A stretch of DNA of 52,170 bases from Alphaproteobacteria bacterium (GCA_017853315.1 JAFMJW010000005.1:1-52170), one strand, 5' to 3'; numbered from the stretch's first letter, positions 4,512 to 11,025 are shown. Notes: generated by a model not told the origin, from the letters alone. Numbers and translations are program-made.

Positions 4512-5930
4512 TCAGGACGGCCGGTCGGGGATGCCGAGCTTGTCCATGCGGTACTTCAGGATGCGTCTCGTCGTGCCGAGCCGCTCCGCGGTGCGCGTCT
4601 GGTTCCAGTCGCAGCGGGCGAGCGCCTCGCGGAGGATGGCCCGCTCGAAGTCGTCCACGGCCTCGGAGAGCGATCGCTCTCCGCGCAGCACCGCCTCGCC
4701 GCGATCGTCGTGTCGCGGCATGGCACTCGTCCGCATCGGCTCGGGGAGCTCCTCGGGGCGCACCGGCCCGCCCGTGCCGAGGATGAACAGCCGCTCGACC
4801 AGGTTCTCGAGCTCGCGGACGTTGCCCGGCCAGCGGTAGCGCTCGAGCACGGCCACCGCCTCGGGCGAGAACGGGCGCTCGACCACCCCGAGCTCGCCCG
4901 CCTTCTCGCGCGCGAAGTGGCGCAGGAGCAGCGGAATGTCCTCGCGGCGCGCGCGCAGCGGCGGGAGCGCGAGCGAGACGACCGCGAGGCGGTAGAAGAG
5001 GTCCCCGCGGAAGGCTCCCTCGGCGACCGCCTGCTCGAGGTCGCGGTTGGTCGCCGCGACGATCCGGACGTCGACCGAGACGGGCTTGGTGCCACCCACG
5101 CGCATGAGTTCGCCGGTCTCGATCACCCGCAGCATCTTCGCCTGGAGGGCCGGGTGCATCTCGCCGATCTCGTCGAGGAAGATCGTCGAGCCGTGGGCGA
5201 GCTCGAAGTGCCCCACCTTGCGGGCGTCCGCGCCGGTGAAAGCACCGCGCTCGTGGCCGAAGAGCTCGCTCTCGAGCAGGTTCTCGGGGATGGCGGCGCA
5301 GTTGATGGCGGTCATCGGGAGCGCCGATCGCGGGCTCTGGTGGTGGAGCGCGCGTGCGATGAGCTCCTTGCCGGTCCCGCTCTCGCCGGTCACGAGCACC
5401 GTGGTCCTCTGCGGGGCCACCATCGCGACGGTGCGGAAGATCGGCTGCATCGCGGCGCTGCGGCCCACGATGTTGCCGAGCTGGTAGCGCCGTCCGACCT
5501 CCGCCCGCAGCTCCTCGACCTCGCGCTGCAGGGCCGCGGTCCGGCTCGCGTTGTGGACGACGGCCCGCAGCTCGTCGAGGTCGAAGGGCTTCTGCACGTA
5601 GTCGAACGCGCCGAGCTTCATCGCGGTCACGGCGGTCTTGAGCGTGCGCGTCGCCGTGAGCATGACGACCGGCAGCTCCGGGTGCCGGCCGCGCAGCCGC
5701 TCGAGCACCGCGAGGCCGTCCATCCCCGGCATCAGGATGTCGAGGAGCACGACGTCGGGGCGCGCCTCGGCGGCGAGCGCGAGCGCGCGTTCGCCGTTCT
5801 CGGCCTGCACGACCTCGAAGCCGTCGCGCAGCACGAGGCGCAGCGACTCGCGCACGCCGAGCTCGTCGTCGACGACGAGCACGCGCGGGCGTCGCGGGCC
5901 GCCCTCTTCAGGCGTCGCGTCGGAGGCCAT
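4512..5930 (-). CDS. NtrC/AtoC-family sigma54-dependent response regulator (REC-AAA+-Fis HTH)
   Basis: REC (VVDDE, LLDILMP, MLTA, QKPF); GESGTGKE; ESELFGHERGAFTGA; FLDEIGE; DLFYRL; WPGNVREL; HTH WNQTRTAERLGTTRRILKYRM. Confidence 0.95.
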   Translation of the reverse strand: MASDATPEEGGPRRPRVLVVDDELGVRESLRLVLRDGFEVVQAENGERALALAAEARPDVVLLDILMPGMDGLAVLERLRGRHPELPVVMLTATRTLKTAVTAMKLGAFDYVQKPFDLDELRAVVHNASRTAALQREVEELRAEVGRRYQLGNIVGRSAAMQPIFRTVAMVAPQRTTVLVTGESGTGKELIARALHHQSPRSALPMTAINCAAIPENLLESELFGHERGAFTGADARKVGHFELAHGSTIFLDEIGEMHPALQAKMLRVIETGELMRVGGTKPVSVDVRIVAATNRDLEQAVAEGAFRGDLFYRLAVVSLALPPLRARREDIPLLLRHFAREKAGELGVVERPFSPEAVAVLERYRWPGNVRELENLVERLFILGTGGPVRPEELPEPMRTSAMPRHDDRGEAVLRGERSLSEAVDDFERAILREALARCDWNQTRTAERLGTTRRILKYRMDKLGIPDRPS

Positions 5931-7359
5931 CTCGTCCGGCGTGGCGTTGGCCGGCCCGCGCGGCGGGACGTGCCGCCTCGGCCCCGGGGAAGCGGATCTC
6001 GACGAGCCGCCGCCCGTCCTCCTCGCGCGAGACGAGCGAGGCGCCGCCGTGGGCGAGCGCGCCGCGGGCCAGCAGCAGGGGCAGCGGGAGGTCGTCGTCG
6101 AGCCCGGTCACGCCGCGCAGGTGGCTCGTCGCGCCGGCTTCCGGGAGCCGGAGGGAGAGCGCGTCGCCGTGGACCAGGACCGCGAGCGTCCCCTGCGGTT
6201 CGATCGTCTCGACGACGTGGCGGGCGACGGCGCCCAGCGCGGCCCGCAAACGTGGCTCGTCCGCGACCGCGACCAGCCGCGCGCCCGGCTCGACGTCGAG
6301 CGAGCAGTCGTTGCCGGCGCGGGCCGCCTGCGCCTCGGAGAGTGCGTCGCGCAGCACCGCAACGACCTCGATCGTGTCGGGATCCGGCGGCGCGAACCGG
6401 GAGAACGCGAGGATGTCCTCCAGCGTGTCGTCCATCCGGGTGATCGCTTCCTCGGTCAGGTCGCGGAAGCGCGCGAGGTCGGCGGGGTCGCTCGCGAGCT
6501 GGGCGACGCTCTGCACGAAGGTTCGCACGGTGACGAGCGGGTTCTTGATGCGATGGGCGAGTTCGACGGCGATCGCCTCGCTGCCCACGCCGGCGACCGC
6601 CCCGGTGCCGTCCGAAGCCCGCTCCCCCGCGGGATCGTCGCGGCGCGCTTCTCTCGCGAGGCGTGTCGCTTCACGCGCGCTCGCCGTCCCGGCGACCGGC
6701 GCCCAGCGAAGGTCGTCCGCGTCGACCAGCGGGCCCTCGACCTCGACCAGCGTGCGAGCGAGCACCCCGTCGAGCTCCGCCGCGTCACCCGGCCAGTCGT
6801 GGTCGAGCAGCGCATCGAGCGCCGCGGAAGAGAGGGCCGGGGCCTCGCGTCCGAGGTCCGCCGCGAGGGCGGCGACCCGGGCGCGCGCGATCTCGGCGAG
6901 GTCCGAGCCGGCGCGCGCGAGCGACGGCGTGCGCACCGTGATCGTGGTGACGAGCGCCCAGAGTTCCGGGCGAAGAGTCTCGCGCAGCGCGTCCACGTCC
7001 GCGAGGCTCGCCGAGACGAGGCGCGGTCCGTCGACGCCGCCGTCGAGCAGCCGCAGGAGCGCGGCCTGGGCGTCGTCGTCGAGACGATCGATGCCGTCCA
7101 CGGCGAGCGTGCAGCGCGGCGACGTCGCGGCGCGGATCAGGCCGGCCAGGAGTCCGTCCCTCGAGCCGAGGAGGTCGACCTGCACCAGGCGGTCGCGGCG
7201 ACTCGCCGTGTGGATCGAGGCCGCGATGCGGTCGAAGGCCGGGCCGCAGCAGTCGAGGCAGAGCACCGGAAGAGAGGAGGGCGCGACCCTCTCGAGGGTG
7301 CGGGCCGCTGCAGGCGGGAGGAGCCGCTGGGCCGGGAGGCTCTGGCGACGGGCGTTCAT
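5908..7359 (-). CDS. Fusion of a degenerate sigma54-activator AAA+ domain with HisKA and a degenerate HATPase
   Basis: ATG at 7359 (ATGA overlap). SSLPVL, TLAVDGIDRLDDDAQAALLRLL, PRLVSAS, LSSAALDALLDHDWPGDAAELDGVLAR (bEBP scaffold with no Walker A or GAFTGA), then ELAHRIKNPLVTVRTF...EEAITRMDDTLEDILAFSR (DHp). Confidence 0.8.
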   Translation of the reverse strand: MNARRQSLPAQRLLPPAAARTLERVAPSSLPVLCLDCCGPAFDRIAASIHTASRRDRLVQVDLLGSRDGLLAGLIRAATSPRCTLAVDGIDRLDDDAQAALLRLLDGGVDGPRLVSASLADVDALRETLRPELWALVTTITVRTPSLARAGSDLAEIARARVAALAADLGREAPALSSAALDALLDHDWPGDAAELDGVLARTLVEVEGPLVDADDLRWAPVAGTASAREATRLAREARRDDPAGERASDGTGAVAGVGSEAIAVELAHRIKNPLVTVRTFVQSVAQLASDPADLARFRDLTEEAITRMDDTLEDILAFSRFAPPDPDTIEVVAVLRDALSEAQAARAGNDCSLDVEPGARLVAVADEPRLRAALGAVARHVVETIEPQGTLAVLVHGDALSLRLPEAGATSHLRGVTGLDDDLPLPLLLARGALAHGGASLVSREEDGRRLVEIRFPGAEAARPAARAGQRHAGRDGLRRDA

Positions 7360-7724
7360 GGCCTGCTTCCGACGGAGCCCGAGTCCGGGGCCCGCGAGAC
7401 CGCGGGATCGTTGCGACGGGCGCGGACCGCGCCGAAGGCGGCGAGGACGATGCCGGTCGCGACCAGCAGGCGACCGCCGGTCGCGACCACGTGGTAGAAG
7501 TCCTGCCGGACGCGGGCGATCTCGACGTCGGCATCGACGGCGGCTTCGCGCGCGCGCGTCCGCGCCCGGTGGATCGGCGGTTGCGAGATCCCGGTCTCGG
7601 CGATGTCGCGCAGTCGCATCGTGCCGGTCGCCCAGTTGCCGAGCCCGAGCGCGATGAGCCCGAGGCCCGCGACCAGGAGGTGGTTGCGGTACCACGCGCT
7701 GCGCGGGGGCGAGGTCTCGGGCAC
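7356..7724 (-). CDS. Small two-TM membrane protein, hypothetical
   Basis: Hydrophobic segments [16 protein letters not shown] and [15 protein letters not shown] flank a ~50 aa loop; the stop overlaps the next ATG. Confidence 0.7.
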
Positions 7725-7851
7725 GACGGCATCTCACCCATTCCGGGCCCGGGTTGCAACCCGGGGTTGCCCCGGAGGACGTCACGCTTCGCGTCGCGGG
7801 CGGTCGCGTTGCACGCACGTCTGCGCGGACGGCAACCGGACGCGCGCGCGC

Positions 7852-7867
7852 TGGCCTCCTCCTTGCT
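7852..7867 (+). promoter_or_regulatory. Sigma54 (-24/-12) promoter
   Basis: TGGCCTCCTCCTTGCT: TGGC...TTGCT with exact GG-N10-GC spacing; palindrome GGGTTGCAACCC at 7751-7762 lies ~120 nt upstream of the predicted start. Confidence 0.7.
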
Positions 7868-7877
7868 CCGGCGAGGG

Positions 7878-7980
7878 ATCGAGGGGGGCGGCGGCGCGAC
7901 GCGTGGTGCGTCGCGTTGCCGCCCGGGGGAGCGGGCGGGCCGGCTGCGAAAGCGTGTCGGTCCGCCCGACTTCGTCTTCG
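7878..7980 (+). ncRNA. Candidate sigma54-dependent small RNA or structured leader with two long hairpins
   Basis: Starts at the predicted +1 of the sigma54 promoter. 17-bp stem 7886-7924 (2 G-U pairs); 16-bp stem 7932-7968 (3 G-U pairs, 1 bulge, GAAA tetraloop); followed by ACTTCGTCTTCG. Confidence 0.5.
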
Positions 7981-8089
7981 CGCCGGCCTTCCCGAGTCTC
8001 GTTATGCGTGCCCGGGCATCGATCCCGGCCTCGCCTCGCTGCTAAGTCGTCGCTTCGGAGCGTCGACGAGGGCGCGGAGGGGGGCGGAG

Positions 8090-9229
<1,140 letters not shown>

Positions 9230-9281
9230 ACCGACCTCTCGCGGCGGCGCCTCGCAGACGCGACCAGATCCCGTCGCGCGG

Positions 9282-9310
9282 TTGCGACGCAACGGGCCGC
9301 TCTGTATCGC
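9282..9310 (+). promoter_or_regulatory. Putative sigma70-type promoter giving a leaderless lipB mRNA
   Basis: TTGCGA-17nt-TATCGC, then 6 nt, then the GTG start; no SD; the -35 lies within a GTTGC-N3-GCAAC palindrome. Confidence 0.5.
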
Positions 9311-9316
9311 TCGCGC

Positions 9317-10057
9317 GTGCCGGGCCTCGGTTGGAGTTTCCTCGGGTGCGTCGACTACGGGGCCGCGAGGCGCCTGCAGGAACGACTCGCCGAGCAGCGC
9401 AGGGCGGGACGGATCGGCGACCTCCTGCTCCTGCTCGAGCACCCGCCGGTCGTGACGATCGGACGCAACGCGCGCGACCCGTTCGGCGAGGAGGACGCCG
9501 GTTCCTCGGCCGTGCCGCGCATCCGGGTCGACCGCGGAGGTGCCGCCACCTACCACGGCCCCGGACAGCTCGTCGTCTACCCGGTCGTCGAGCTGCGCTC
9601 GGCCGGCCGCGGGGTACGCCGCTTCGTCGACGACCTCGAAGAGACGCTCTGCGCCGTCGCGCGGGAGTTCGGGGTGGAGGCGTTTCGTCGCGCGGGCTTC
9701 CCGGGCGCCTGGGTCGAGGGCTCGCCCGCCCGCAAGCTCGGGTCGGTCGGCATCGGGGTGCGCCGCGGCGTGAGCCTGCACGGCGCCTCGCTCAACGTCT
9801 CCCGCGCGAGTGCGCGCGGCTTCGACGGCTTCGATCCGTGCGGGCTTCCGGGAGTCGTGGCGACGAGCCTCGAGGACGAGGCGCCGAACTGGGTGCCCGG
9901 GCTCGGGCGCGTCGCGGAGAGCTTCGTCGACGGCTGGGCGCGGATCACGGGCGACCCGCGGCCCGAGCGGGTGGCGATCGAGATCGGGAGTCCGGAGGCG
10001 GGACTCGCCGCGGCCCCGCACGCGGCCGGGGGGGACGAGGTGCCGTCGTGGACGTGA
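9317..10057 (+). CDS. lipB: Lipoyl(octanoyl) transferase LipB
   Basis: LLLLEHPPVVTIGR, DRGGAATYHGPGQLVVYP, RKLGSVGI, HGASLNV, FDPCGL. Confidence 0.93.
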   Translation: MPGLGWSFLGCVDYGAARRLQERLAEQRRAGRIGDLLLLLEHPPVVTIGRNARDPFGEEDAGSSAVPRIRVDRGGAATYHGPGQLVVYPVVELRSAGRGVRRFVDDLEETLCAVAREFGVEAFRRAGFPGAWVEGSPARKLGSVGIGVRRGVSLHGASLNVSRASARGFDGFDPCGLPGVVATSLEDEAPNWVPGLGRVAESFVDGWARITGDPRPERVAIEIGSPEAGLAAAPHAAGGDEVPSWT

Positions 10058-11025
10058 AGCCGCTGCTCGACCGATTCGCCGGTCACGACCGCCGTGCGCT
10101 CGCCCGGCTGATCACGCTCGTCGAGAGCCGTTCCCCGGAAGTGCCCGCGATCATGCGGGAGATCTACCCGCGAACCGGGCGCGCGACGGTGGTCGGCATC
10201 ACGGGCCCGCCGGGCGCGGGCAAGTCGACGCTCGTCGACCGCGTCATCGCGCACCTGCGAGCCGCGGGGCGCAAGGTGGGGGTCGTCGCGATCGACCCGT
10301 CGAGCCCGTTCTCGGGTGGAGCGGTGCTGGGCGACCGGGTGCGCATGCAGCAGCACTTCCTCGACGAGGGCGTGTTCATCCGCAGCCTCTCGACCCGCGG
10401 CCGCCACGGCGGGCTCGCCCGCGCGACCCGCGAGGTCGTCCACCTGCTCGACGCCTTCGGGCACGACGTGGTGCTGGTCGAGACGGTGGGCGTCGGACAG
10501 ACCGAGCTCGACATCATGAAGCTCGCCCAGACCACCTGCGTCGTGCTCGTCCCCGAGGCGGGTGACACGATCCAGGTGATGAAGGCCGGGCTGCTCGAAA
10601 TCGCCAACGTCTTCGTCGTGAACAAGGCCGACCGCGACGGCGCGCGCCGGCTGAAGAACGAGCTCGAGGTCATGCTGCAGCTGCGACCGGCGGCCGACTG
10701 GAACGTGCCGGTGCTGCTCACCGAGGCGACCGCGGACAAGGGCATCGAGGAGCTGTGGACGCGCATCGCCGAGCACGGCGTCGCGAGGCGGGCCGCGCGC
10801 GGCGACGAGGAGCAGGGGCGCGAGCGCTTCGAGGAATGGGGCGAGATCCTGCGCGACGAGGTCGCCGAACGCATCGACCGCTCGCTCGCGCAACCGGACC
10901 TCCTGCCGCTCGGCGAGCGGGTGCGCGCCGGCGCGGTCGATCCCTACACCGCGGCGCTCGACGTCCTCGGCGATGCGGAACTGCTCGCGAGGATGCTCGG
11001 GGACCGGAGGGCCGGCGGACGATGA
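10048..11025 (+). CDS. meaB: Methylmalonyl-CoA mutase-associated GTPase MeaB (ArgK family)
   Basis: RRALARLITLVE, GITGPPGAGKST, AIDPSSPFSGGAVLGDRVRM, ETVGVGQTE, GDTIQVMKAG, VNKAD. Confidence 0.93.
   Translation: MDVKPLLDRFAGHDRRALARLITLVESRSPEVPAIMREIYPRTGRATVVGITGPPGAGKSTLVDRVIAHLRAAGRKVGVVAIDPSSPFSGGAVLGDRVRMQQHFLDEGVFIRSLSTRGRHGGLARATREVVHLLDAFGHDVVLVETVGVGQTELDIMKLAQTTCVVLVPEAGDTIQVMKAGLLEIANVFVVNKADRDGARRLKNELEVMLQLRPAADWNVPVLLTEATADKGIEELWTRIAEHGVARRAARGDEEQGRERFEEWGEILRDEVAERIDRSLAQPDLLPLGERVRAGAVDPYTAALDVLGDAELLARMLGDRRAGGR

What the first reader, a model, noticed from the sequence alone, without database searches (positions are those of the whole stretch)
7852..7980. Candidate sigma54-dependent ~100-nt small RNA
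Seen: TGGCCTCCTCCTTGCT predicts +1 near 7878. Immediately after come a 17-bp hairpin (7886-7924) and a 16-bp hairpin with a GAAA tetraloop (7932-7968), then a pyrimidine-rich tail. Five stem pairs are G-U wobbles, which work only on the plus-strand RNA, suggesting selection on RNA structure rather than a DNA palindrome. The bEBP ATG is ~210 nt away and has its own extended -10-like element (TGC TAAGTC, 8040-8048). Inference: an independent sRNA analogous to myxobacterial Pxr, or an attenuator controlling the bEBP.
Basis: partly seen in the sequence, partly recalled or inferred. Interest (0 to 1): 0.75.

Follow-up and report, generated by a model that had tools for sequence, protein, structure and literature searches.

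The report
Conserved sigma-54-driven two-hairpin RNA
An uncultured high-GC bacterium (probably class Binatia) and most of its family keep a short, tightly folded RNA behind a sigma-54 promoter, directly in front of a sigma-54 activator gene; it is a new example of a known kind of regulatory RNA, and its target is unknown.

Summary
TGGC-N7-TTGC lies at 7852-7866. It is followed by a 17-bp hairpin (7886-7924) and a 22-bp hairpin (7925-7976, GAAA loop) that fold far better than shuffles (z -5.4).

Comparative data make it a real RNA element:
- Promoter and hairpins recur once per genome in 15 of 20 genomes of the family and on 2 metagenome contigs.
- They always lie between a divergent membrane-protein/kinase/NtrC operon and the orthologous activator (bEBP) gene.
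- 28 of 44 pairs show double compensatory changes in 15 sequences.
- G-U pairs outnumber A-C pairs 77 to 5, so selection acts on the plus-strand RNA.
- No Rfam family matches.

Hairpin 2 is followed by a short U run in 13 of 17 sequences. The bEBP gene keeps its own TGnTA promoter-like motif in 17 of 17.

My best reading is a free ~95-100-nt sigma-54/bEBP-dependent sRNA (0.5). A structured leader or attenuator of an autoregulated bEBP transcript is not excluded (0.33). No transcript data were available.

It is a new member of a known kind (glmY-glrKR, pxr-nla19 layout). Earlier notes of this scan describe similar sigma-54/short-RNA units on other, unrelated DNA.

The parts
7356..7724 (-). Divergent small membrane-protein gene (122 aa, no Pfam family). 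It is the first gene of a TM-protein / kinase-like / NtrC-type regulator operon.
   Evidence: Frame plot and translation; no Pfam hit. The orthologue lies divergently in 15 of 15 related loci that have upstream DNA, with the kinase-like gene next to it.
7748..7836 (.). Enhancer-like (UAS) region. It holds the perfect 18-bp palindrome CCCGGGTTGCAACCCGGG (7748-7765) and further GTTGC/GCAAC copies at 7766-7770, 7808-7812 and 7832-7836, that is 40-130 nt upstream of +1.
   Evidence: Read. GCAAC/GTTGC occurs at 14.3 per kb in the -170..-30 regions of 15 loci against 2.0 per kb in the rest of the loci, and 13 of 15 loci have at least one copy. Binding by a bEBP is inferred, not shown.
7852..7867 (+). 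Sigma-54 -24/-12 promoter TGGCCTCCTCCTTGCT (GG 7853-7854, GC 7865-7866).
   Evidence: TGG[C/T]-N7-[C/T/G]TTGC sits at the same place in 16 of 16 related loci with upstream DNA. rpoN is in the genome.
7878..7980 (+). Predicted ~95-100-nt RNA: a 5' single-stranded AUCGAGGG, hairpin 1, hairpin 2 and a short U-enriched tail. The 5' end is inferred from promoter geometry and the 3' end from the end of conservation and the U run. Neither end has been observed.
   Evidence: CGAGGGGG follows the TTGCN pentamer by 11-14 nt in the loci read.
7886..7924 (+). Hairpin 1: 17 bp, loop GUGGU (AUGGG or AUGGU in relatives).
   Evidence: In this helix 13 of 18 model pairs show changes on both sides across 15 sequences, and 92% of cells are paired.
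7925..7976 (+). Hairpin 2: 22 bp with one bulge and a GAAA tetraloop (core 7932-7968). It looks like an intrinsic terminator with a short, interrupted U run starting at 7971.
   Evidence: In this helix 13 of 22 model pairs show changes on both sides, and 94% of cells are paired. Tail score is -3.36, which only 2.5% of background positions reach.
8002..8048 (+). Conserved promoter-like block for the bEBP gene: TTATGC (8002-8007), then 32 nt, then the extended -10-like TGCTAAGTC (8040-8048).
   Evidence: Exactly one TG.TA lies within 330 nt after hairpin 2 in 16 of 17 sequences, and G013 has a second one. Background is 0.58 per kb. A T[T/A]TG block sits at a fixed 35 nt upstream. In 554 crude gene starts of this genome, TG.TA at -60..0 occurs 29 times on the same strand and 3 times on the opposite strand. 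Promoter function is inferred.
8090..9229 (+). bEBP gene (379 aa): sigma-54 interaction AAA+ domain, lid and Fis-type HTH, with no receiver domain. RBS GGAGGGG at 8077-8083.
   Evidence: Orthologues of 54-75% identity lie downstream of the RNA in related loci.

Best explanation
The gap between the divergent operon and the bEBP gene holds a separate, enhancer-dependent transcription unit.

Proposed mechanism, step by step:
1. A bEBP binds the GCAAC/TGAAAC-rich region 40-130 nt upstream. It is either the one encoded just downstream or the NtrC-type regulator of the divergent operon.
2. It opens the sigma-54 promoter at 7852-7866, and transcription starts near 7878.
3. The transcript folds at once into two long GC-rich hairpins.
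4. The second hairpin, followed by a short U run, stops most polymerases. This releases a ~95-100-nt RNA whose only exposed parts are a G-rich 5' end (CGAGGG), the two loops and a GGGGGA linker.
5. The bEBP gene is transcribed mainly from its own TGnTA promoter about 50 nt before its ATG.

The released RNA then acts in trans, by pairing with C-rich sites or by binding a protein. This ties the output of this two-bEBP signalling module to post-transcriptional control.

Shown here: the promoter motif, the structure, its conservation and covariation, strand specificity, single copy, fixed synteny, and a conserved second promoter-like motif.

Inferred: the start site, termination at hairpin 2, which bEBP activates, and any trans function.
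For: Structure:
- It is stable beyond shuffles: z -5.37.
- In 15 sequences, 92.2% of cells are paired against 36-44% when partners are slid.
- 28 of 44 pairs have double changes, and 0 of 500 shuffles reach any measure.
- A structure-blind MAFFT alignment of 16 sequences still gives both hairpin cores, with 13 of 18 pairs compensatory.
- G-U cells number 77 and A-C cells 5, so the structure is paired 93.0% on the plus strand and 80.4% on the minus strand.

Promoter:
- It is conserved in 16 of 16 loci with upstream DNA. The spacing to CGAGGGGG is 11-14 nt after the TTGCN pentamer in the loci read.
- rpoN is present.

Distribution:
- It is present in 15 of 20 genomes of the family. There is one match per genome among the candidates scored.

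Independence from the bEBP gene:
- TG.TA is conserved in 17 of 17 sequences between the RNA and the bEBP start.
- The spacer from the model's 3' end (about 9-20 nt after hairpin 2) to the TG.TA varies from 24 to 191 nt with little conservation.
- Two genomes of genus g3 keep the bEBP orthologue and the membrane-protein gene but have no sigma-54 promoter or hairpins. The bEBP gene therefore does not need them.

Termination:
- A UU(U)C run begins at the end of the GC-rich core in 13 of 17 sequences. Their tail scores of -3.3 to -4.3 are reached by at most 2.8% of background positions.
- The simple scan calls a terminator-like site here, 1 found against 0.2 expected.

Precedent:
- glmY lies upstream of glrK-yfhG-glrR, which has an independent promoter, and GlrR activates glmY from sigma-54 (PMC4152352, passages of section 13).
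Against: - No transcript data: no RNA run was listed, so neither end of the RNA nor its existence is observed.
- The U run is short (2-4 U). In the minimum-energy fold it pairs with upstream A/G bases, and after the full stem no U tract remains.
- Three of 17 sequences have poor tails (G008, G013 and the L035/G009 locus).
- The A-U pairs at the stem base covary to G-C in some genera. That fits a structural role for these U's better than a U tract.
- The RNA is almost fully double-stranded, with no obvious long seed.
- Neither Hfq nor CsrA was found in this 95%-complete genome.
- The RNA always lies upstream of the same gene and in the same orientation. A leader would do the same.
- The 32-nt distance between the TTG block and the TAnnnn hexamer is not that of a sigma-70 promoter, so the TGnTA motif may not be a promoter.
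Confidence: 0.5

Rival explanations
1. Structured 5' leader or attenuator of an autoregulated bEBP mRNA. Under this reading the sigma-54 promoter is the inducible, positive-feedback promoter of the bEBP gene and the TGnTA element is its basal promoter. The two hairpins are the 5' part of the long transcript. They stabilise it against 5'-end-dependent decay, or hairpin 2 acts as a leaky terminator that damps the feedback loop.
For: - The element always lies upstream of the orthologous bEBP gene and in the same orientation, in 16 of 16 loci that extend downstream.
- The U run is weak and partly base-paired.
- A constitutive proximal promoter paired with an inducible distal one is a common layout for autoregulated regulators. 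This is established knowledge of the glnALG type, recalled.
- Earlier scan note e1-4431834 reached this reading for a similar unit in another phylum (unchecked).
Against: - Conservation stops right after hairpin 2, and the spacer varies from 24 to 191 nt (measured from the model's 3' end to the TG.TA).
- By inspection of the folds I saw no conserved alternative (antiterminator) pairing and no leader peptide.
- Genus g3 keeps the bEBP gene without the element.
- Selection for about 40 base pairs across 7 genera is more than 5'-end protection would need.
Confidence: 0.33
2. Cis-acting RNA that modifies the transcribing polymerase. This would be put-like processive antitermination, or a pause or loading signal. 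The two adjacent hairpins, made right after the promoter, would act on the RNA polymerase that made them.
For: Two long hairpins are separated by 0-3 nt and start within about 10 nt of +1. This geometry is conserved in all 17 sequences. Phage HK022 put RNA has such a two-stem layout (recalled, not checked in any call).
Against: There is no sequence or structure match to any Rfam family. No strong terminator that would need overriding was seen downstream before the bEBP gene. Nothing in the data asks for this mechanism.
Confidence: 0.05
3. DNA-level element. The inverted repeats would be protein-binding palindromes or cruciforms (operators for the bEBPs) and not an RNA.
For: The minus strand also folds well, z -4.73. 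The region lies between two regulated promoters.
Against: G-U cells outnumber A-C cells 77 to 5 at paired positions. Stem sequences change freely while pairing is kept (28 of 44 pairs), which is the opposite of a sequence-specific operator. The repeats lie downstream of, not upstream of, the sigma-54 promoter.
Confidence: 0.04
4. Small protein-coding gene. The SD-like GAGGGGG at the 5' end, with an AUG or GUG in the loop of hairpin 1, would start a short ORF.
For: An AUG or GUG is present in or beside loop 1 in all sequences, 13-20 nt after GAGGGGG.
Against: - Single-base indels in the 3' arm of hairpin 1, and gaps in hairpin 2 that are not multiples of three, shift the frame between genera (alignments).
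- In the window the frame stays open to 11025, so it is a GC-rich artefact.
- In the L035/G009 locus the AUG position is replaced.
- Changes are compensatory in stems, not synonymous.
Confidence: 0.02

Closest known systems
glmY - glrK/yfhG/glrR locus of Enterobacteriaceae (GlmY sRNA, sigma-54 + GlrR)
   Same: An sRNA gene with a sigma-54 promoter and upstream activator sites lies directly upstream of the genes for its own two-component bEBP system, in the same orientation, and those genes have an independent promoter. sRNA and bEBP co-occur (PMC4152352, passages of section 13 and the Fig. 4 legend).
   Different: There is no sequence or structure homology: the Rfam scan found nothing. GlmY is a protein decoy (RapZ) with three stem-loops. 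Here there are two long hairpins, no overlapping sigma-70 promoter was seen, a second bEBP is encoded divergently, and the function is unknown.
Pxr sRNA next to nla19 in myxobacteria
   Same: A ~100-nt multi-stem-loop sRNA is apparently transcribed from a sigma-54 promoter and encoded beside a sigma-54-dependent response-regulator gene. Its synteny is conserved across genera (PMC5568312, passages of Background and Results).
   Different: pxr lies downstream of nla19 and has three stem-loops. The present RNA lies upstream of its bEBP gene and has two. No homology was detected. The lineage differs: the closest named relatives are titled Candidatus Binatia.
Qrr1-luxO of Vibrio and CrcZ-cbrB / NrsZ-ntrC of Pseudomonas
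   Same: These are sigma-54/bEBP-dependent sRNAs encoded next to the gene of their activator. I know this from memory; the papers PMC4878744 and PMC8871633 were seen only in the search listing.
   Different: Those sRNAs are Hfq- or Crc-linked and have defined single-stranded motifs. Here no Hfq or CsrA was found and the RNA is nearly all duplex.
Rho-independent terminators and terminator-gated leaders
   Same: Hairpin 2 is a long GC-rich stem followed by a short U run. The covariance models cross-hit two canonical terminators, in G009 and in G129 after a tRNA.
   Different: The U run has only 2-4 U and is paired in the minimum-energy fold. The hairpin has no gene upstream to terminate, because the flanking genes are divergent.

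Membership tests
Enhancer-dependent sigma-54 (RpoN) promoter | GG and GC doublets 10 nt apart (TGGCAC-N5-TTGC type) | tested here: met
   TGGC-N7-TTGC at 7852-7866. The same geometry is found in 16 of 16 related loci with upstream DNA.
Enhancer-dependent sigma-54 (RpoN) promoter | The organism encodes sigma-54 and bEBPs | tested here: met
   Sigma54_DBD at G000:C35, 216 bits. Two bEBP genes flank the site.
Enhancer-dependent sigma-54 (RpoN) promoter | Upstream activator sites about 80-150 nt away | tested here: inconclusive
   An 18-bp palindrome and GCAAC/TGAAAC repeats are enriched 7- to 15-fold upstream. Part of the enrichment may be intergenic composition, and binding was not tested.
Enhancer-dependent sigma-54 (RpoN) promoter | rpoN- and bEBP-dependent transcript starting about 12 nt after the GC | not testable with these tools
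   No RNA run was listed.
Free-standing bacterial sRNA gene | Own promoter, intergenic, conserved structure | tested here: met
Free-standing bacterial sRNA gene | Own terminator giving a discrete 3' end | tested here: inconclusive
   A short U run follows the hairpin-2 core in 13 of 17 sequences. It is paired in the full fold, and 3 of 17 have a poor tail.
Free-standing bacterial sRNA gene | Downstream gene has an independent promoter | tested here: inconclusive
   TGnTA is conserved in 17 of 17, and TG.TA is enriched on the same strand before gene starts, 29 against 3. The spacing to the upstream TTG block is atypical, and no start site is known.
Pxr, GlmY/Z, Qrr, CrcZ or any other Rfam 15 family | Match to the family covariance model at its gathering score | tested here: not met
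   cmscan of 7000-9000 at E up to 10 gave one overlapping hit, a plant miRNA model at 19 bits against a gathering score of 90. No bacterial sRNA family matched. I did not check which of these families the library holds.
Transcription attenuator or riboswitch | Conserved alternative (antiterminator) pairing, a leader peptide, or a ligand pocket of conserved unpaired bases | tested here: not met
   The stems are nearly continuous duplex. Only about 6 bp of possible pairing between the 3' arm of hairpin 1 and the 5' arm of hairpin 2 was seen by eye in the window. No frame-conserved ORF exists. This was inspection, not a formal test.

The most novel reading that the evidence does not exclude
The RNA is not a base-pairing sRNA. 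It is a duplex-rich protein ligand or a polymerase-modifying RNA and forms part of a three-component switch with the two flanking bEBPs. For example, it could bind and hold in check the downstream bEBP, which has lost its receiver domain in four genera. Or, put-like, it could make the sigma-54 polymerase that made it read on into the bEBP gene. Either would be a new way of coupling an RNA to enhancer-dependent transcription.
Probability: 0.1. Interest if true: 0.75.

Novelty: new member of a known kind. Interest (0 to 1): 0.45.

Why it matters
Sigma-54-dependent small RNAs encoded beside their activator genes (GlmY, Qrr, CrcZ, Pxr) are key nodes in envelope, quorum-sensing, carbon and developmental control. 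All known cases come from cultured Proteobacteria and myxobacteria. This element would extend that design to an uncultured lineage whose closest named relatives are titled Candidatus Binatia.

No paper in the library combines Binatota with sRNA, or Binatia with sigma-54. No Rfam family matches.

The element is a well-supported candidate RNA family of 17 sequences from 7 genera with strong covariation. It offers a clean case for testing how leaky GC-rich terminators behave in very high-GC bacteria. It also marks the regulatory core of a conserved module with two bEBPs whose signal and regulon are unknown.

Tried and rejected
- Rfam scan of 7000-9000 at E up to 10: only chance hits.
- RNA sequencing runs: no RNA holder was listed.
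- Own-genome DNA search: no second copy, only two short GC-rich chance matches.
- DNA search in 60 relatives: only the two same-genus genomes matched over the element. The other hits of 20-80 nt are low-complexity GC matches.
- Covariance-model false positives, rejected after reading them:
  - G009:C37 (L201) is a canonical terminator with a GAAA loop and UUUUUCGUU.
  - G129:C4 is a tRNA 3' end plus terminator.
  - L038, L091 and the second L115 hit have E above 0.01 and were not followed.
- CsrA and Hfq as partners: no Pfam match in the genome, which is 95% complete.
- Small ORF from the loop-1 AUG/GUG: rejected because the frame is not conserved.
- N-terminal extension of the bEBP through the hairpins: rejected. 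There is no coding signal at 7720-7960, and in 6 orthologues the bEBP frame opens only downstream of hairpin 2.
- A second sigma-54 promoter on the minus strand at 7748-7775: rejected by eye because the spacing is off by 2.
- A canonical sigma-70 -35/-10 pair anywhere in 7300-8500: 0 found.
- Tail score after the full minimum-energy stem: no U tract. I therefore rescored from the end of the GC-rich core against a matched background.
- Target prediction by complementarity to neighbouring 5' UTRs: looked at by eye only and dropped as uninformative in 73% GC sequence.
- Earlier scan notes near this place: none.

Full report
**What is there**

The window is contig C191 of a 3.98-Mb, 398-contig assembly with 73% GC. 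The finding lies in a 365-nt gap (7725-8089) between two divergent genes.

On the minus strand is a 122-aa membrane-protein gene (7356-7724) with no Pfam family. It is followed by three more genes:
- a kinase-like gene with a degenerate sigma-54-interaction domain fused to HisKA (5908-7353);
- an NtrC-type response regulator (4512-5930);
- a REC-HisKA protein.

On the plus strand is a 379-aa bEBP (8090-9229) with an AAA+ sigma-54 interaction domain, a lid and a Fis-type HTH, but no receiver domain. It is followed by lipB and meaB.

**Check of the observation**

The features are at the stated coordinates.
- TGGC (7852-7855) and TTGC (7863-7866) have the canonical N7 spacing.
- The plus strand 7878-7990 folds to -81.2 kcal/mol against -63.5 +/- 3.3 for shuffles (z -5.37, 0 of 200).
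- The fold has a 17-bp hairpin (7886-7924) and a hairpin whose 16-bp core (7932-7968, GAAA loop) extends to 22 bp (7925-7976).
- The minus strand also folds well (z -4.73).
- The promoter word is not over-represented in the genome: 45 copies against 16-78 for other spacers. I expect only about 0.002 by chance on this strand of this gap.
- rpoN is present.
- No Rfam family matches.

**Relatives**

A DNA search of 60 relatives matched the element only in the two genomes of the same genus. In both, the match begins exactly at the promoter.

I built three covariance models in turn, from 3, 6 and 15 sequences.
- In the family, which here is also the order (20 genomes including this one), the second model found one hit in each of 14 genomes.
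- One of these, G009:C37, is a canonical terminator and was discarded.
- The third model added G008.
- G009 does carry the promoter and both hairpins in front of its bEBP orthologue, with a diverged hairpin 1 that the models catch only in part.

The total is therefore 15 of 20 genomes, from 7 of 8 genera. The element was not found in G004, G011 and G015 (genus g3), in G007 (88% complete) or in G019 (90% complete, 950 contigs).

Among 132 genomes of 18 other families of the class, the only hit was a tRNA end plus terminator. These are samples scored with filters, so I write "not found in those searched".

A protein-anchored scan of public contigs added two metagenome contigs (L114, cut at its 5' end, and L115). 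It also added a contig titled Candidatus Binatia bacterium (L035), which reads like the G009 locus and is counted once. The closest named relatives of the bEBP are all titled Binatia or Binatus. That is my only basis for the taxonomic guess.

**Synteny**

- In 16 of 16 loci with upstream DNA, a TGG[C/T]-N7-[C/T/G]TTGC motif sits just upstream, with the invariant CGAGGGGG 11-14 nt after the TTGCN pentamer in the loci read.
- The bEBP orthologue (54-75% identity, against at most about 52% for paralogues) lies downstream. In G005 the locus ends before the AAA+ part, but a receiver-type N-terminus is visible.
- The membrane-protein gene lies divergently in 15 of 15 loci that reach that far, with the kinase-like gene behind it.

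**Is it an RNA?**

On the model-fitted alignment of 15 sequences:
- 92.2% of 626 cells are standard pairs, against 36-44% when the 3' partners are slid by 1-3 columns;
- 28 of 44 pairs have changes on both sides;
- 0 of 500 column shuffles reach any of the five measures.

That alignment leans towards the model. So I also aligned 16 sequences with MAFFT alone and let RNAalifold predict a structure. Both hairpin cores came back, with 13 of 18 pairs compensatory.

At the paired positions of hairpins 1 and 2 there are 77 G-U cells and 5 A-C cells. The structure is 93.0% paired on the plus strand and would be 80.4% paired on the minus strand.

A coding reading fails. Indels shift the frame between genera, and in this window the frame from the loop GUG stays open to 11025.

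**Free sRNA or leader?**

Four observations lean to a separate unit.
1. Between the RNA and the bEBP start, 16 of 17 sequences have exactly one TG.TA and G013 has a second one. The background is 0.58 per kb, or about 0.19 per 330 nt. The motif has a T[T/A]TG block at a fixed 35 nt upstream. In 554 crudely called gene starts of this genome, TG.TA at -60..0 occurs 29 times on the same strand and 3 times on the opposite strand, as expected of a -10 element.
2. Sequence conservation ends right after hairpin 2. The spacer from the model's 3' end (about 9-20 nt after hairpin 2) to the TG.TA varies from 24 to 191 nt.
3. Two genomes of genus g3 keep the bEBP orthologue, the membrane-protein gene and GCAAC repeats in a ~200-nt gap, but have no sigma-54 promoter and no hairpins.
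4. A UU(U)C run begins at the end of the GC-rich core of hairpin 2 in 13 of 17 sequences. Their tail scores of -3.3 to -4.3 are reached by at most 2.8% of matched background positions. The simple scan also calls a terminator-like site here.

Several observations count against it.
- The U run is short.
- In the minimum-energy fold the U's pair with upstream A/G bases, and nothing U-rich follows the full stem.
- Three sequences have poor tails.
- Those base pairs covary.
- The 32-nt distance between the TTG block and the TAnnnn hexamer is not that of a sigma-70 promoter.
- A leader would show the same fixed position and orientation.

Canonical U-rich terminators exist but are rare in this genome. 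Of 4923 hairpins of at least 10 bp, 35 have 5 or more T in the next 10 nt, against 91 of 20000 random positions. A weak tail is therefore not unusual here.

I put the free sRNA at 0.5 and the leader or attenuator at 0.33. No RNA run was listed, so this cannot be settled now.

**Activation**

The -170..-30 regions of 15 loci are enriched for three motifs.

| Motif | Upstream regions | Rest of the loci |
|---|---|---|
| GCAAC/GTTGC | 14.3 per kb | 2.0 per kb |
| GAAAC | 6.7 per kb | 0.43 per kb |
| TGAAAC | 8 copies | 0 copies |

In the window there is a perfect 18-bp palindrome, CCCGGGTTGCAACCCGGG, at 7748-7765. These are plausible enhancer sites for one of the two flanking bEBPs. Part of the enrichment may reflect intergenic composition.

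**What the RNA does**

This is unknown. Its exposed parts are G-rich: a 5' CGAGGG, loop (A/G)UGG(G/U), and the linker GGGGGA. No Hfq or CsrA gene was found. I saw no conserved alternative pairing that would make a classical attenuator (inspection only).

**Comparison with known systems**

The closest in layout is glmY, which lies upstream of glrK-yfhG-glrR. There the sRNA has a GlrR-dependent sigma-54 promoter and the two-component genes downstream have an independent promoter (PMC4152352, passages read).

Pxr lies beside nla19 and appears to be transcribed from a sigma-54 promoter (PMC5568312, passages read).

Qrr1/luxO and CrcZ/cbrB are recalled; their papers were seen only in a search listing.

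None is homologous to this RNA.

Earlier notes of this scan describe sigma-54-promoter/short-RNA units in other phyla. They are unchecked and on unrelated DNA.

**Verdict**

This is a real, conserved, sigma-54-linked structured RNA. It is a new RNA family but a new member of a known kind. No paper in the library combines Binatota with sRNA, or Binatia with sigma-54.

Noticed in passing
window 8090-9229; L027, L115, L114, L195-L204, L210-L212: The orthologous bEBP carries an N-terminal receiver domain in genera g2, g4, g5 and g7 and on both metagenome contigs. It lacks one (about 350-380 aa) in g1 (this window), g3, G013 (g6) and the G009/L035 locus. The sensory domain has therefore been lost, possibly more than once, which leaves an activator that may be constitutively active.
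   Followed up: partly
window 5908-7353 (-): A kinase-like protein has an N-terminal degenerate sigma-54-interaction AAA+ domain (Sigma54_activ_2 at 23.5 bits, below the cut-off, plus AAA_lid_14) fused to HisKA. This is an unusual architecture, and it is conserved next to the membrane-protein gene in 15 loci.
   Followed up: partly
window 8002-8048 and the aligned block in 16 related loci: A T[T/A]TG block sits at a fixed 35 nt upstream of the TG of TGnTA, so 32 nt separate the TTGnnn and TAnnnn hexamers. This is far more than the 17 nt of a sigma-70 promoter. A GTGCAG(C) block lies between them. It may be an operator or a promoter of another type.
   Followed up: partly
window 7748-7765: A perfect 18-bp palindrome, CCCGGGTTGCAACCCGGG, lies about 120 nt upstream of the predicted start. 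Related GCAAC repeats recur both upstream of the sigma-54 promoter and, in genera with long spacers, between the RNA and the bEBP promoter block.
   Followed up: partly
L034 (CAMBZJ010000025.1): This public contig is titled as a Klebsiella pneumoniae MAG. Yet it carries the high-GC element (hit GC 0.77) and a bEBP 74% identical to the window's, so the title looks like a mislabel.
   Followed up: no
whole genome G000: Canonical U-rich intrinsic terminators are rare. Of 4923 hairpins of at least 10 bp, 35 have 5 or more T in the following 10 nt, against 91 of 20000 random positions.
   Followed up: partly
window 7603-11025 (+) and other long ORFs: Very long spurious open frames overlap real genes on both strands, as expected at 73% GC. 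Mechanical ORF lists are unreliable here, so I called genes from third-position GC.
   Followed up: yes
window 9317-11025 (+): lipB (octanoyltransferase) and a MeaB-type GTPase follow the bEBP gene on the same strand with small gaps. I did not check whether they belong to its operon or regulon.
   Followed up: no
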